From IMG/VR virus record IMGVR_UViG_637000107_000005: 44,938 bases of DNA. The stretch is one strand, 5' to 3'. Source of the stretch: a virus (lineage: Duplodnaviria > Heunggongvirae > Uroviricota > Caudoviricetes). Made by a program: the position numbers. Of the stretch, positions 3,001 to 6,000 are shown piece after piece (the first letter of the stretch is position 1; each line of letters begins with the position of its first letter).

Positions 3001-6000
3001 GGCCAGAGGGCGCAGGCCAGTTCATTGTCGAGTGTTTTCCATGTCTGTTTGTATTCGCGGCGAATGGCAACAGTGACAGCCCCGGTTTTTTCAGCAGCGT
3101 TTTCAGNGTTCTGTTGGTTGACTCTGGCGCGGGNGAGATCAACAACAGACGTGTATTTTCCGGTTTCCTTGCGTTCACCTTCGCGACGTTTTTTCCAGAT
3201 GCGCATCTCTGCCTGAATTTCAGGCCATTTAGCGCCAGGCTCACATTTATGCTTAACCCACCCGATGGCATGCAGTTTAAGTTCAGGATACATGGCGTTA
3301 ACTTCTGGCATTTTCATCAACGCTTCAACGATATGTCCGCCGAATGTTGCCATGTCTTCCTGTAGTAATTCCTGTGCGCTAATCACCATATCAACGGTGA
3401 TGTTTTCGCATGTGTCGAATTTAACCAGGACTGCGTTCTGTACTTCAGGGGACAGCTTGTCAAAATTGACGTTCATCGGATCGGATTCTGGTTCGACCGG
3501 TACAAAGGAAGCTGACTCCTCATCCCAGCGGTTTTCCTGCATATATTCGGTATCCCAGGAATCGAGGGCAGGGCGGGGTATGCCGGGTTTATCCTCGCAG
3601 ACAATAAATTTATAAGCGCAGTCCTGAGCTGCCGGGAATTGCTCCAGAAATTGCCAGTGAAATTTTGCGCGTGCGCGACGCTCATCACCGGCTTCAATGG
3701 CAGTGGCCACCGCAACAGCGCTATCTTCTTTTATGGCCTGTTCGTCAGGAATAGCAGCGCAAATAAAGATTTTACTCATTGTGTTTTAACCTCATTACAG
3801 ATTTAAGGGTGAACAAATCCCTGCCATTGCTGGCATATAAAAATGAAACCGGATATTAATTACGGTGCTGTTTTAAAGTCCTGCCGGTATTTCGTTATTA
3901 TTAGTGTGAGTAGTTTTATCTACCGGATAACAGTTACCGGGAATTTTTTGTTCTGCTGCTGCAGCCATGCATTCTTTCATTGAACCGTATAAGCCAGTCA
4001 CCAGCTCAAGAGATTCGCCGGAAACAAGATAAACTGTCAGAACGAGTGCAAATGTTGTATTCATTGTTTATATCCTTTTTGCAGCAGGTCCAGACGAGCC
4101 AGCATTGAAGGAATGCATACTTCATTTAACAGGTCCTGCTCGAGTTTTCTCTGCTTAATGGCGTCTTCAATAAATGTTTTGTCTCCAGTGATAACGCCAA
4201 TTTCGAAACGAAGTTCAGACGTGCTGGCATTACATGATAACTTTTCCATTATCGCGTCCTCAACAATGAATTTTGTGATGCGGTGCCTGGTGCCTCCAGG
4301 TGACGTTAACCAGTTAACAATTAACGCCGGATACAGAGCATTCTCGTTACTCAGCAAATGACCGCTTTACCGATTTAACTGTTCCGCGTGCGCTGAGCCG
4401 CATTCACCGCATCACAAAATTCACTTTTAAAAAAGGGCGGCAGAGCAGTTACGGAGTAAAACTGATACCGCCAAATGTCACCAGAATATTGATAACAGAG
4501 GGCGTTGCAGCGGGGTTGTCACTTAAGCGTATGGTCAACCTGACAACCCGGTGTCCTCAACGGGGGAAAGAATAACCCCGCCATACTTACCGCCGCGCCA
4601 TTTCGCGGATTGCCACAACCGGAAGCGCACGGTCGAATTAAATTTAACGACGGCTCTAAGGGAGAAGGACTTCGCCGTGCACTTTCGTGTTATGCCCTGA
4701 CTTTTCAGGGATATATCCTTTCAGTAAACTGTCAGTGCCGGATTCTTATCTGTGTCCGGCGCACGACCACACGTAGCAGCGTGTTGGTCTCCATTTTTAA
4801 TTCAGCCCTTAATGGAGGATAAAATGCCAAACAAACCATGCCCTGCCTGTAACGCTCTTTCTGGCTTTTTAGAGAAGGGCGGTTATTACATTTTTAACTG
4901 TCCAGAACATGTTGAATTTCATATATCAAAACTTGACAGTATCATTACAAAGCCAAATCAGTATCAGTCTGATTTACTGAATAAAGAGTTAAACGCCGCC
5001 CGAGATTAAGGGCGTAGTGGCCCATTAAAAATATTGCAAAGACCAACTATTGTTGAACTGGATTAAACCAGTAATTCTCTATTGCTCTTATTGTTACCAT
5101 CGGATGATTGCCGGGGGTTATTTTAAGTTCGGGAGGAAAAGGCTCTCCATCAGCAGCCATCATTGAGTATGTGAAATCCGCCGACGCAGTCCCTTTCATG
5201 ATAATTCCGAATTTTTCAAGTAATGAGAGCAGTTCCGGTAATCCTGTGTCATCTGAATAACTTTCCTCATAGAAAGAAGCGATTGCCGCAGGAGATGACA
5301 GTTCTCGCTCTGCAATTTTTTTGTAGTTTTCCAGAATTCTTTTTTTGAATACTTTTCCTCGACATGAAAACCCATCACCGAGGCAATCCGCTTTGCAGTT
5401 TCTTCAGTATTCTGGTTGTTTGTTACCGAAACAGAGTACAATCCGGTAAACGCATCGCGCACATTACGAGCCATATTATCAATGTATTTCTTCGTTGCAG
5501 ATTCTAATTCAACTTCGTTCAGACGTTGGTGAAGTGCATGTGCTGCAATTTCCTGGATTTCTTTTAGTAAATCTTTAAATTCCATCTTTAACTCCGTTAG
5601 TCGTTAGATTTTGCCGAACTGGAAAGCGCCTGTTTAAACTCACTGAAGCTGAGAGCTTCCTCGCCTTCGGCAAGGCCTTCGAAGTATTCTTCGTAAGCCT
5701 TTTCCATGATTGTGTCGAAATCCATATCACTCACCTGAGTTTCTTTCCAGCCAGCGACGGGCACCATTTTCGGTTTTAAACGTTTTGCTTTTGGTATACG
5801 TCATCGCGGTGAATGTACCGTCCTGGTTGGGAAACACGCCGTACACCAGAGATTCGTTGTTGCCAAGATCGATAGTATCCATGTTGACCTCATTTCCCCT
5901 TAACGCCGGGTAGCGGAACAAAAACCTGCTGCATAGTTATTAAAGTTGAACCCTGCCGTCATGTTCATACGCCTCGGGCTGGCTACTTACCCCCTGACCA

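What the first reader, a model, noticed from the sequence alone, without database searches (positions are those of the whole stretch)
4061..4487. DicF sRNA, DicB and a YdfD-sized membrane ORF embedded in the leftward early operon
A 53-nt minus-strand segment with a U-tail matches recalled DicF at all but about two positions, and is followed by a 62-aa DicB-like ORF and a 63-aa N-terminally hydrophobic ORF. In the Qin prophage this module sits in the cro-side operon; here it sits on the repressor side like lambda kil, which indicates modular shuffling of a host-division control cassette.
Basis: partly seen in the sequence, partly recalled or inferred. Interest (0 to 1): 0.5.

Follow-up and report, generated by a model that had tools for sequence, protein, structure and literature searches.

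The report
Known DicF-DicB-YdfD prophage division module
This is the well-known dicBF cassette (DicF small RNA, DicB division inhibitor, YdfD lysis protein) of a Qin-like lambdoid prophage of E. coli O157:H7, in the same repressor-side early operon as in the K-12 Qin prophage, so it is ordinary and has not been moved.

Summary
DicF lies at 4435-4487(-): Rfam RF00039 scores 76.9 bits (threshold 48), and 50 of 53 bases match K-12 dicF. A terminator hairpin and a run of six U follow. DicB lies at 4061-4249(-), a full-length Pfam DicB match of 131.8 bits. A YdfD homologue lies at 3873-4064(-), DUF1482, 69 bits, overlapping the dicB stop (ATGA). That ORF is just outside the stated coordinates.

The operon starts at a PL-type promoter (about 6064-6094). 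Its operators are the same palindromes found between the repressor and the cro-like gene. It runs ydfA-ydfB-orf129-leader-DicF-dicB-ydfD-exonuclease-int.

In K-12 Qin the module is also on the repressor (dicA) side, in the same gene order, and the literature calls dicBp the lambda PL analogue. Nothing has moved between operon sides. The same 2.2 kb is at least 99% identical in about 400 complete E. coli genomes, mostly O157:H7. Multiple dicBF copies in O157 prophages are published.

Side finding: a roughly 105-nt structured leader, which forms the body of the published 190-nt RNase III DicF species, is conserved across phages. In some of them, other hairpin RNAs replace DicF in the same slot.

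The parts
7104..7147 (+). OR operators and PR-like promoter. Palindromes ACAATAAAAAACTGT / ACAGTTTTTTATTGT; -35 TTGATT at 7118-7123; TAGGCT at 7142-7147. Drives the cro-like (YdaS) gene.
   Evidence: Repeat search and sequence read. Promoter hexamers were assigned by eye and not tested.
6666..7067 (-). Immunity repressor, 133 aa, HTH only, with no peptidase S24 cleavage domain. DicA / PaaR-type CI analogue.
   Evidence: Pfam HTH_3 47.2 bits and Phage_CI_repr 23.4 bits, no S24 hit. About 27% identity to DicA by tblastn. Literature on PaaR2 as the CI analogue: PMC8630535.
6160..6638 (-). PaaA-type antitoxin (6447-6638) and ParE toxin (6160-6447), downstream of the repressor at the position of lambda rexAB.
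   Evidence: Pfam PaaA2 68.3 bits and ParE_toxin 63.5 bits. RefSeq annotation of the identical O157 locus.
6119..6141 (-). Terminator-like hairpin TCCCTCTTTCGAGGGA plus a T-run. It ends the repressor-toxin/antitoxin unit just before PL.
   Evidence: Terminator scan and sequence.
6064..6113 (-). PL-type promoter with OL operators. -35 TTGACA at 6089-6094; TAGATT at 6064-6069 (19-nt spacer). Two palindromes identical or nearly identical to those at OR overlap both hexamers.
   Evidence: Repeat search: 6067-6083 is 100% complementary to 7128-7144, and 6091-6108 is 94% complementary to 7104-7121. Sequence. Function is inferred by analogy to dicBp and PL933P.
5727..5882 (-). ydfA (DUF1391), 51 aa.
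   Evidence: 51/51 identical to K-12 YdfA. Pfam DUF1391 97.5 bits.
5597..5725 (-). ydfB, 42 aa.
   Evidence: 41/42 identical to K-12 YdfB.
5196..5585 (-). 129-aa ORF in the position of K-12 ydfC but unrelated to it.
   Evidence: No meaningful alignment to YdfC. phrog_1363 172.8 bits, unknown function. Annotated as hypothetical in RefSeq.
4824..5009 (+). 61-aa ORF on the opposite strand inside the operon (MPNKPCPACN...). Strong GGAGGA ribosome-binding site.
   Evidence: phrog_10133 161.6 bits, unknown function. Annotated as hypothetical in RefSeq. No Pfam hit.
4614..4694 (-). Predicted long RNA duplex (4671-4694 pairs with 4614-4637). It brackets the expected RNase III-made 5' end of the 190-nt DicF species (about 4619-4624).
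   Evidence: MFE folds of the window and of K-12 give the same duplex, and the differences between them are wobble-compatible. The 190-nt RNase III species is published for K-12 (PMC10448788). The cleavage position in this window is inferred.
4505..4611 (-). Conserved structured leader core, about 105 nt: hairpin CCGCG/CGCGG, a variable hairpin, and a 9+3 bp hairpin with an invariant loop GGUUGACCAUACGCUUAAG. It forms the body of the 190-nt DicF species.
   Evidence: About 95% identical to K-12. Covariance model R1 scores 131.4 bits, with one copy per locus. 96% of cells are paired against at most 53% in slid controls, and 5 pairs change on both sides. No Rfam family matches it at E<=1.
4435..4487 (-). 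DicF sRNA, 53 nt.
   Evidence: Rfam RF00039 76.9 bits. 50/53 identical to K-12.
4429..4434 (-). U-run of the DicF intrinsic terminator.
   Evidence: Sequence and fold.
4250..4428 (-). DicF-dicB spacer, nearly identical to K-12. It contains a sub-threshold STnc100-like stretch (4272-4421).
   Evidence: Alignment. Rfam STnc100 33.6 bits, below the gathering score of 47, E=5.6e-5.
4061..4249 (-). dicB, 62 aa.
   Evidence: Pfam DicB 131.8 bits. 34/62 identical to K-12 DicB. RefSeq names it DicB.
3873..4064 (-). ydfD homologue, 63 aa, with start/stop overlap with dicB.
   Evidence: Pfam DUF1482 69.2 bits. 40/63 identical to K-12 YdfD.
1308..3779 (-). 823-aa exonuclease gene (ydfE position). Next gene of the same operon.
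   Evidence: Pfam Rv2179c-like 3'-5' exoribonuclease domain 209.6 bits at residues 641-813. Same position as the exonuclease in the O157 record and in phage Tritos.
1..1020 (-). Tyrosine integrase, 339 aa, at the distal end of the leftward arm.
   Evidence: ORF list. Position matches the integrase in the O157 record.

Best explanation
This is an orthodox dicBF operon: the PL-type early-left operon of a Qin-like lambdoid prophage of E. coli O157:H7, integrated next to yccA.

Lysogenic state. A short, non-cleavable DicA/PaaR-type repressor binds the same palindromic operators at OR and OL and keeps the operon off. This is inferred from the operator layout and from published work on DicA and PaaR2.

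On derepression, transcription starts at about 6060 and runs leftward through ydfA, ydfB and orf129 into a structured leader. RNase III cuts a long duplex at about 4620 to give a roughly 190-nt species. RNase E then cuts at 4487 to free the 53-nt DicF, whose 3' end is the intrinsic terminator at 4429-4442. These processing steps were shown in K-12. They are inferred here because the whole non-coding unit is about 95% identical.

RNA polymerases that read through the terminator express dicB and the translationally coupled ydfD, then the exonuclease, and transcription continues towards int.

Effectors. DicF, with Hfq, pairs through its pyrimidine-rich loop and 3' part with the ftsZ ribosome-binding site and blocks FtsZ synthesis. 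Its other published targets are xylR, pykA and manX. DicB binds MinC, directs it to the septum to block Z-ring formation, and also inhibits ManYZ. YdfD is a lysis protein reported to inhibit IspG, and DicB coexpression suppresses its killing. All effector functions are inferred by homology to the K-12 proteins and RNA. None was tested here.
For: Identity of the three elements.

Synteny with K-12 Qin, where dicC is divergent and dicA-ydfA-ydfB-ydfC-dicF-dicB-ydfD-ydfE-intQ lie on one strand. The same order is found in an identical O157:H7 locus and in the viable phage Tritos, which annotates DicF.

Promoter and operators. OL palindromes at 6064-6113 match OR at 7104-7144. They overlap a consensus -35 TTGACA, and PR has a parallel arrangement. 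A terminator separates the repressor-toxin/antitoxin unit from PL.

Non-coding unit. The leader, DicF and spacer are about 95% identical to K-12. The predicted duplex sits where the 190-nt species should begin.

[quoted passage not shown] DicF-ftsZ pairing is shown genetically, and O157 Sakai and EDL933 carry multiple dicBF copies (PMC5069750). YdfD causes lysis, interacts with IspG, and is suppressed by DicB (PMC8835842). A PL933P promoter with OL operators is described, and dicB/kil lie 3' of paaR2 in O157 prophages (PMC8630535).

Prevalence. 397 records match the 2.2 kb at 99% identity or more, and 4767 of 5426 complete E. coli genomes match part of it.
Against: Nothing contradicts the identification. 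The caveats are these.

DicB is only 55% identical to the characterised K-12 protein and YdfD only 63%, so MinC and IspG binding are assumed.

DicF nt 12 (G>A) lies in the 5' region that K-12 DicF uses for xylR, so the target range may differ.

My whole-molecule DicF-ftsZ duplex energies (-36.6 and -38.5 kcal/mol) are only about 1.3-1.7 sd better than shuffles. That computation does not add independent support.

The PL hexamers have a 19-nt spacer, and the consensus scan did not call them.

An opposite-strand ORF (4824-5009) lies inside the operon, and its effect on leftward transcription is unknown.

No Rem-type antirepressor was found in the window, so the inducing signal is unknown.
Confidence: 0.93

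Rival explanations
1. One reading: the DicF-DicB-YdfD cassette has moved from a cro-side (rightward) operon in Qin to the repressor-side (leftward) operon here.
For: None found.
Against: In K-12 MG1655, dicA, ydfABC, dicF, dicB, ydfD, ydfE and intQ are on one strand, and dicC is divergent. PMC10448788 equates dicBp with PL and dicCp with PR. Window, Qin, O157 strain TR01 and phage Tritos share the same order. In 128 collected copies, wherever ydfA was found it lay within 1.8 kb upstream of the leader, and wherever DicB, YdfD or the annotated Kil was found it lay within 1.5 kb downstream.
Confidence: 0.02
2. Same elements, different purpose. In the lysogen the module works mainly as a host-benefit ('moron-like') locus through low-level or subpopulation expression, rather than as a lytic-cycle division block. 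DicB-MinC would inhibit ManYZ and exclude superinfecting phages. DicF would tune metabolism and, in EHEC, virulence genes.
For: Published for K-12: DicB protects against phages that use ManYZ (PMC6832061, title and abstract; summarised in PMC10448788). About 1% of cells switch dicBp on spontaneously, and DicF accumulates in stationary phase. Four O157 DicF orthologues are produced under microaerobic conditions, according to PMC10448788. The module is retained at 99% identity or more in about 400 genomes despite its toxicity.
Against: This is not exclusive of the main explanation. The operon is under the prophage's own OL/PL control, like lambda kil. The module also occurs in viable lambdoid phages, which suggests a role in phage development too. 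Nothing in the sequence distinguishes the two roles.
Confidence: 0.35
3. The locus is a decaying remnant: recognisable by sequence but no longer expressed or functional in this prophage.
For: Many O157 prophages are cryptic (PMC8630535). The integrase of the identical TR01 prophage is annotated as frameshifted. DicB and YdfD are diverged from the K-12 proteins.
Against: All ORFs of the operon are intact, with ribosome-binding sites and start/stop coupling. The promoter, operators, processing duplex, leader and terminator are all preserved. DicB and YdfD match their family models end to end. The window's integrase ORF is intact. The non-coding unit is about 95% identical to the functional K-12 one.
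Confidence: 0.04
4. The conserved leader core (4505-4611) is a cis-acting processive antiterminator RNA of the HK022 put kind. It would let RNA polymerase read through the DicF terminator into dicB-ydfD-exo-int in a phage with no recognisable N gene.
For: A structured, conserved RNA sits directly upstream of an intrinsic terminator that must be read through. The same arrangement occurs after the C1-controlled Pban promoter in P1. No N-like protein is evident in the left operon.
Against: There is no sequence likeness to the candidate HK022 put pair. Model R1 finds nothing in HK022 at E<=1. There is only one copy per phage, whereas put comes as a putL/putR pair (PMC9378689). The core has three hairpins, not two, and lies about 1.5 kb from the promoter. 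A simpler published role exists: it is the body of the 190-nt RNase III-generated DicF species.
Confidence: 0.06

Closest known systems
[quoted passage not shown]
   Same: Same gene order, same strand relative to the repressor, and the same direction towards int. YdfA is 100% and YdfB 98% identical. The leader, DicF and DicF-dicB spacer are about 95% identical. The dicB/ydfD start/stop overlap is the same.
   Different: DicB is 55% and YdfD 63% identical. ydfC is replaced by an unrelated 129-aa ORF plus an opposite-strand 61-aa ORF. The immunity specificity differs: the repressor is about 27% identical to DicA and the operators are different. A PaaA-ParE toxin-antitoxin pair lies between the repressor and PL. 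No Rem homologue was found. The exonuclease and integrase are intact here, whereas K-12 has ydfE and intQ pseudogenes.
Immunity region of CP-933P / Sp12 of E. coli O157:H7 (paaR2-paaA2-parE2, ydaS-ydaT, PL933P; PMC8630535)
   Same: Same architecture: an HTH repressor followed by a PaaA-type antitoxin and a ParE toxin; a divergent YdaS (Cro-like) and YdaT (CII-like) pair; and a PL with OL operators beyond the toxin, leading to dicB/kil-type genes.
   Different: The published operator half-site consensus is GTTTAGTAA. The window's palindromes are ACAATAAAAAACTGT, so this is probably a hetero-immune relative. Identity to PaaR2 itself was not measured here.
Lambda kil (PL-operon host division inhibitor)
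   Same: Same functional slot: a small host-division inhibitor in the repressor-controlled leftward early operon. In phage Evi and 5 other collected loci, a gene annotated Kil follows the DicF slot in place of dicB-ydfD.
   Different: No convincing sequence relationship: DicB against the Evi 'Kil' gives 17.7 bits and E=0.007 in a single pairwise comparison. The Evi protein matched no Pfam family. From established knowledge, Kil acts on FtsZ through ZipA, whereas DicB acts through MinC.
Escherichia phage Tritos and mEp460-like viable lambdoid phages
   Same: The order is Cro | CI, then three small ORFs, DicF (annotated), dicB, ydfD, exonuclease VIII-like, xis, int. They are 85-88% identical over part of the module.
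   Different: They carry the K-12-type ydfC and a different repressor. No toxin-antitoxin pair is annotated after the repressor.
Phage P1 'dicF-like region' downstream of Pban
   Same: It shares the leader core (R1 89-93 bits) followed by a hairpin and T-run, directly after a repressor-controlled promoter.
   Different: The RNA in the slot is not DicF by Rfam. The genes downstream are tRNAs and the ban operon, not dicB.
HK022 putL/putR antiterminator RNAs
   Same: A structured nascent RNA in an early operon of an N-less lambdoid phage, upstream of terminators.
   Different: No sequence or model match, a single copy, and a different architecture.

Membership tests
DicF sRNA (Rfam RF00039) | Covariance-model score above the curated gathering threshold over the full model | tested here: met
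   76.9 bits against a threshold of 48, model 1-52/52, E=2.1e-15.
DicF sRNA (Rfam RF00039) | About 53 nt, ending in a GC-rich hairpin plus U-run (intrinsic terminator) | tested here: met
   Hairpin of -15.5 kcal/mol followed by UUUUUU. 50/53 identical to K-12.
DicF sRNA (Rfam RF00039) | Located in a dicB-type operon, between upstream small ORFs and dicB, with the conserved RNase III / RNase E processing leader | tested here: met
   Synteny. Leader about 95% identical. Duplex at the expected 190-nt 5' end. Cleavage itself was not tested.
DicF sRNA (Rfam RF00039) | Complementarity of the loop and 3' region to the ftsZ ribosome-binding site | tested here: inconclusive
   The CUCCG loop segment (nt 32-36) pairs with CGGAG of the ftsZ leader in the predicted duplex, and variant nt 38 falls in an unpaired stretch. 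The total duplex energy is only about 1.3-1.7 sd better than shuffles. The pairing was proven genetically for the K-12 RNA (PMC5069750).
DicF sRNA (Rfam RF00039) | Hfq binding and division inhibition in vivo | not testable with these tools
   Requires experiments.
DicB (Pfam PF05358) | Full-length match to the family model at about 62 aa | tested here: met
   131.8 bits against a cut-off of 27, 1-62/62. 34/62 identical to K-12 DicB.
DicB (Pfam PF05358) | MinC-dependent inhibition of septation | not testable with these tools
   Inferred by homology only (literature).
YdfD / DUF1482 (Pfam PF07358) | Match to the family model, about 63 aa, immediately downstream of and overlapping dicB | tested here: met
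   69.2 bits against a cut-off of 25. 40/63 identical to K-12 YdfD, both cysteines kept. ATGA overlap.
YdfD / DUF1482 (Pfam PF07358) | Lysis on expression and interaction with IspG | not testable with these tools
   Published for K-12 YdfD (PMC8835842).
Lambdoid PL-type early-left operon | Promoter overlapped by operators of the same sequence as those at OR | tested here: met
   6067-6083 is 100% complementary to 7128-7144, and 6091-6108 is 94% complementary to 7104-7121. The hexamers overlap the operators. Binding was not tested.
Lambdoid PL-type early-left operon | Same strand as the repressor gene, transcribed away from the immunity region towards the recombination and integration genes | tested here: met
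   All genes from 5882 down to 1 are on the minus strand and end at int.
Lambda Kil family | Sequence homology of the division inhibitor to Kil | tested here: not met
   DicB against the phage Evi 'Kil' gives 17.7 bits over 44 residues. The resemblance is positional and functional only.
HK022 put antiterminator RNA (for the leader core) | Similarity to put, two stem-loops, and a putL/putR pair | tested here: not met
   No R1 hit in HK022. No likeness to the candidate put pair. One copy in the window.
PaaR-PaaA-ParE three-component toxin-antitoxin / immunity module | HTH regulator followed by a PaaA2-family antitoxin and a ParE toxin, opposite ydaS-ydaT | tested here: met
   Pfam PaaA2 68.3 bits and ParE_toxin 63.5 bits. 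HTH_3 and YdaS_toxin hits. phrog_163 CII-like for the YdaT position. Identity to PaaR1 or PaaR2 was not measured.

The most novel reading that the evidence does not exclude
DicF may be only the commonest allele of a modular phage 'sRNA cassette'. A conserved RNase III/RNase E-processed scaffold (the ~105-nt structured core upstream and the conserved trailer downstream) flanks a slot. In other phages that slot holds different terminator-hairpin RNAs with different pyrimidine-rich loops and 5' tails. Examples are Stx2c phages, P1/P7, Salmonella F1055 and several IMG/VR prophages. These would be a family of interchangeable, differently targeted host-directed sRNAs delivered from early operons.

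The window itself carries the ordinary DicF allele. The 1994 Faubladier & Bouche paper, which is not held in the library, and the P1 genome annotation ('dicF-like region') may already describe part of this.
Probability: 0.3. Interest if true: 0.5.

Novelty: already known. Interest (0 to 1): 0.12.

Why it matters
For the scan, this finding is a correct recognition of a textbook prophage module, and its evolutionary claim rests on a misremembered map. It adds nothing new about DicF, DicB or YdfD.

Its practical value is for annotation. RefSeq records that carry the identical locus list no feature under DicF. The locus also links the dicBF operon to a PaaR-PaaA-ParE-type immunity region, so the published bistable switch of such regions would also govern DicF, DicB and YdfD output in O157:H7.

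The side observation could matter for how temperate phages reprogramme hosts, if it holds up and is not already described. A conserved processing scaffold may carry different sRNAs in the DicF position across lambdoid, P1-like and Salmonella phages.

Tried and rejected
1. My first DicF comparison was one base out of register and gave 14/53. Redone in register, it gives 50/53.

2. Whole-molecule DicF-ftsZ duplex energies are not discriminating against shuffles, so I do not use them as evidence.

3. The put-type antiterminator idea for the leader failed. The candidate HK022 put pair is unrelated, model R1 has no hit in HK022, and there is a single copy per phage.

4. A nut-like boxA/boxB reading of the core was considered by eye. 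The CCGCG-AAAUGG-CGCGG hairpin and the CGCUUAAG loop do not match the lambda or P22 boxB/boxA consensus as I recall them, and no N-like arginine-rich protein is present. I dropped the idea without a formal test.

5. tRNA-like reading of the leader: ARAGORN finds nothing in the window.

6. Coding reading of the leader: the 31-aa and 35-aa minus-strand ORFs in 4535-4839 are interrupted by 1-nt indels between the window and K-12, so they are unlikely to be coding.

7. The 98-aa TTG-started extension of the dicB frame (4061-4357) is rejected. The ATG at 4249 has a ribosome-binding site, aligns with the K-12 start, and gives a full-length Pfam match.

8. The promoter-like hit at 4263-4234(-) overlaps the dicB start. 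It is one of 5 hits against 7.3 expected by chance, so I ignored it.

9. MAFFT misaligned the variable hairpin of the core. I replaced that alignment with a model-based one.

10. The 1994 Faubladier & Bouche paper could not be read.

11. The L003 locus was never written to the sandbox, so I pasted its sequence.
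Full report
OBSERVATION

An Rfam scan of the whole window gives three hits above gathering score. One is DicF (RF00039) at 4435-4486 on the minus strand: 76.9 bits against a threshold of 48, E=2.1e-15, covering the whole model. Aligned in register with the annotated K-12 dicF gene (b1574), window 4435-4487(-) matches at 50 of 53 positions. The differences are at nt 1 (T>A), nt 12 (G>A) and nt 38 (G>A). An earlier comparison that was one base out of register should be ignored. The 3' two-thirds folds into the expected hairpin (-15.5 kcal/mol, z=-2.5) and is followed by six U.

Downstream, the ORF 4061-4249(-) is 62 aa, has a GAGGA ribosome-binding site, and matches Pfam DicB end to end (131.8 bits, E=7e-39). 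It is 34/62 identical to K-12 DicB. Its stop overlaps (ATGA) the start of a 63-aa ORF at 3873-4064(-). That ORF matches DUF1482, the YdfD family (69.2 bits), and is 40/63 identical to K-12 YdfD, with the hydrophobic N-terminus and both cysteines kept. The only correction is that the YdfD ORF lies just outside the stated 4061-4487.

CONTEXT

The window is a lambdoid prophage. A 2.2-kb query around the module is 100% identical to E. coli O157:H7 chromosomes. 397 RefSeq records match at 99% or more, and 4767 of 5426 complete E. coli genomes match some part of it. In strain TR01 the prophage lies next to yccA.

On the minus strand, from high to low coordinates, the order is:
- a 133-aa HTH repressor without a cleavage domain (6666-7067);
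- a PaaA2-family antitoxin and a ParE toxin (6160-6638);
- a terminator-like hairpin (6119-6141);
- a promoter region;
- ydfA (51/51 identical to K-12), ydfB (41/42), and a 129-aa ORF unrelated to ydfC;
- a long non-coding leader, then DicF, dicB and ydfD;
- an 823-aa exonuclease and the integrase at 1-1020.

Divergent from the repressor are a YdaS-type Cro analogue (7176-7448) and a YdaT/CII-like gene (7432-7857).

The same palindromes (ACAATAAAAAACTGT / ACAGTTTTTTATTGT) occur twice. One set lies between the repressor and the cro-like gene (7104-7144). The other lies just upstream of ydfA (6064-6113). In both places they overlap a -35/-10 pair: TTGACA...TAGATT leftward and TTGATT...TAGGCT rightward. 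This is an OR/OL arrangement, so the dicF-dicB-ydfD genes belong to a PL-type early-left operon controlled by the prophage repressor.

THE INTERPRETATION

The premise is wrong. The RefSeq annotation of MG1655 shows dicC on one strand. On the other strand it shows dicA, ydfA, ydfB, ydfC, dicF, dicB, ydfD, ydfE and intQ. This is the window's order and orientation. PMC10448788 says explicitly that dicBp resembles lambda PL, that DicA and DicC correspond to CI and Cro, and that PR is analogous to dicCp and PL to dicBp. The viable phage Tritos has Cro | CI, then three small ORFs, DicF (annotated as such), dicB, ydfD, exonuclease, xis and int. PMC8630535 notes kil and/or dicB genes 3' of cI/paaR2 in lambdoid prophages of O157:H7 and describes a PL933P promoter with OL operators beyond paaA2-parE2. 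[quoted passage not shown] So the placement is canonical and already described.

HOW IT MOST LIKELY WORKS

The processing pathway was shown in K-12 and is inferred here. Derepression of PL gives a polycistronic RNA. RNase III makes the 5' end of a 190-nt DicF species and RNase E makes the 5' end of the 53-nt form. The 3' end comes from intrinsic termination, or from RNase III cleavage on read-through transcripts.

In the window the whole non-coding unit is about 95% identical to K-12. That covers the roughly 330-nt leader, DicF and the spacer up to the dicB start. DicB protein, by contrast, is only 55% identical. Counting 190 nt back from the DicF 3' end lands at about 4619-4624. This is inside the 3' arm of a predicted duplex of roughly 20 bp (4671-4694 with 4614-4637). 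The same duplex forms in K-12, and the differences between the two are wobble-compatible.

The effector functions are inferred by homology:
- DicF represses ftsZ translation through its 3' region, and xylR through its 5' end.
- DicB acts with MinC on septation and on ManYZ.
- YdfD is a lysis protein that binds IspG, and DicB suppresses its killing.

Variant nt 38 falls in an unpaired stretch of the predicted ftsZ duplex, while nt 12 lies in the 5' region. The duplex energy itself is not significantly better than shuffles, so I do not count it as evidence. The repressor lacks a cleavage domain and no Rem homologue is present, so the inducing signal is unknown.

WHAT ELSE THE EVIDENCE SHOWED

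The leader contains a roughly 105-nt core (4505-4611) with no Rfam match at E<=1. Part of the leader is conserved well beyond DicF-bearing phages: in Stx2c phages, Salmonella phage F1055, and P1/P7, where GenBank marks a 'dicF-like region' just after the C1-controlled Pban promoter.

A pattern scan of IMG/VR for two invariant blocks of the core returned at least 120 stretches. With the earlier loci this gave 128 copies. A covariance model built on a three-hairpin structure finds exactly one copy per locus, at 89-135 bits, and none in HK022. On the model-based alignment 96% of cells are paired, against at most 53% when partners are slid. Five pairs change on both sides, mostly in the variable second hairpin, and 0 of 500 shuffles reach the observed values. 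The sequences are closely related and the alignment was fitted to the structure, so this is moderate support only.

I tested and rejected a put-type antiterminator reading. The simplest account is that the core is the body of the published 190-nt RNase III species.

The sequence between the core and the conserved trailer is not always DicF. About 85 of the 128 copies carry DicF. The others carry different hairpin-plus-U-run sequences: a Stx2c-phage type in about 19, a P1 type in 9, and several rarer types. Rfam does not call the P1, Stx2c or F1055 versions DicF.

Cross-tabulating slot type against neighbouring genes shows reassortment within the operon. DicF occurs with K-12-type DicB (65 loci), with the window's DicB allele (3) or with an annotated Kil (4). 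Non-DicF slot RNAs occur with DicB/YdfD or with Kil. Whether the alternative slot RNAs are functional sRNAs, and whether this has been described before, could not be settled. The 1994 Faubladier & Bouche paper is not held.

VERDICT

The identification and the 'leftward early operon, like kil' placement are right. The claim that this differs from Qin is wrong. The feature is already known, so interest is low. The variable-slot cassette is the only lead that might be new, and it concerns related loci rather than this window.

Noticed in passing
window 4505-4611 (-); also L001 5260-5365, L004 4423-4528, L006 1498-1601, L007 2509-2614, L008 2509-2618: A roughly 105-nt conserved, apparently structured RNA core sits directly upstream of DicF. 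No Rfam family matches it. It occurs once per phage and is shared by Qin-type, Stx2c, Salmonella F1055 and P1/P7 phages. It is probably the body of the published 190-nt RNase III DicF species.
   Followed up: yes
related loci L006-L008, L010, L025, L030, L036, L037, L088, L106, L107, L113, L117 and others (slot just 3' of the core): In about a third of 128 collected copies, the DicF position holds a different GC-hairpin plus U-run RNA, with another loop or 5' tail, between the same conserved core and, in the Qin-type loci, the same trailer. These RNAs assort with DicB/YdfD, with an annotated Kil, or with neither.
   Followed up: partly
window 6160-7067 (-): The immunity repressor is followed by a PaaA2-family antitoxin and a ParE toxin, at the position of lambda rexAB. 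This is a PaaR-PaaA-ParE-type three-component module, as published for CP-933P/Sp12. The operator sequence here (ACAATAAAAAACTGT) differs from the published GTTTAGTAA consensus.
   Followed up: partly
window 4824-5009 (+): A 61-aa ORF (MPNKPCPACN..., CxxC motif, strong GGAGGA ribosome-binding site) lies on the opposite strand inside the leftward operon, between orf129 and the DicF leader. It belongs to a conserved phage family of unknown function (phrog_10133, 161.6 bits). K-12 Qin has no counterpart.
   Followed up: partly
window 17022-17188 (+) and 4272-4421 (-): A full STnc100 sRNA match (94 bits) lies upstream of a 616-aa ORF (17329-19179). The DicF-dicB spacer gives a sub-threshold STnc100-like match (33.6 bits) sharing the CACCNGGAGGCACCNGGCAC hairpin. 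Similar weak matches follow the DicF slot in phages Tritos and Evi, and one occurs about 1.2 kb downstream of the slot in P1.
   Followed up: partly
window 13224-13545 (+): A hok/sok-type locus: the sok antitoxin RNA scores 105.6 bits and the ORF is 98% identical to K-12 HokD. This is another similarity to Qin.
   Followed up: partly
window, whole; for example 3107, 3134, and a cluster at 33588-34747: The window contains 126 ambiguous bases. Two fall in the exonuclease gene (X in its translation), and many cluster around 33.6-34.7 kb. This suggests a consensus or mixed assembly.
   Followed up: no
window 1308-3779 (-): The 823-aa 'exonuclease' has a recognisable domain (Rv2179c-like 3'-5' exoribonuclease) only at residues 641-813. 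The N-terminal 640 residues, acidic and low in complexity in part, match no Pfam family.
   Followed up: no
L002 (NZ_CP033605.1) and other RefSeq O157 records: RefSeq annotation of the identical loci lists no feature under DicF ('none' under the match), although K-12 and phage Tritos annotate it.
   Followed up: partly
window 1-1020 (-) versus L002 10980-11986: The integrase ORF is intact (339 aa) in the window but is annotated as frameshifted in the otherwise identical TR01 prophage.
   Followed up: no
window, whole: No homologue of the Qin antirepressor Rem was found by tblastn, and the repressor lacks an S24 cleavage domain. How this prophage's PL/PR are derepressed is therefore open.
   Followed up: partly
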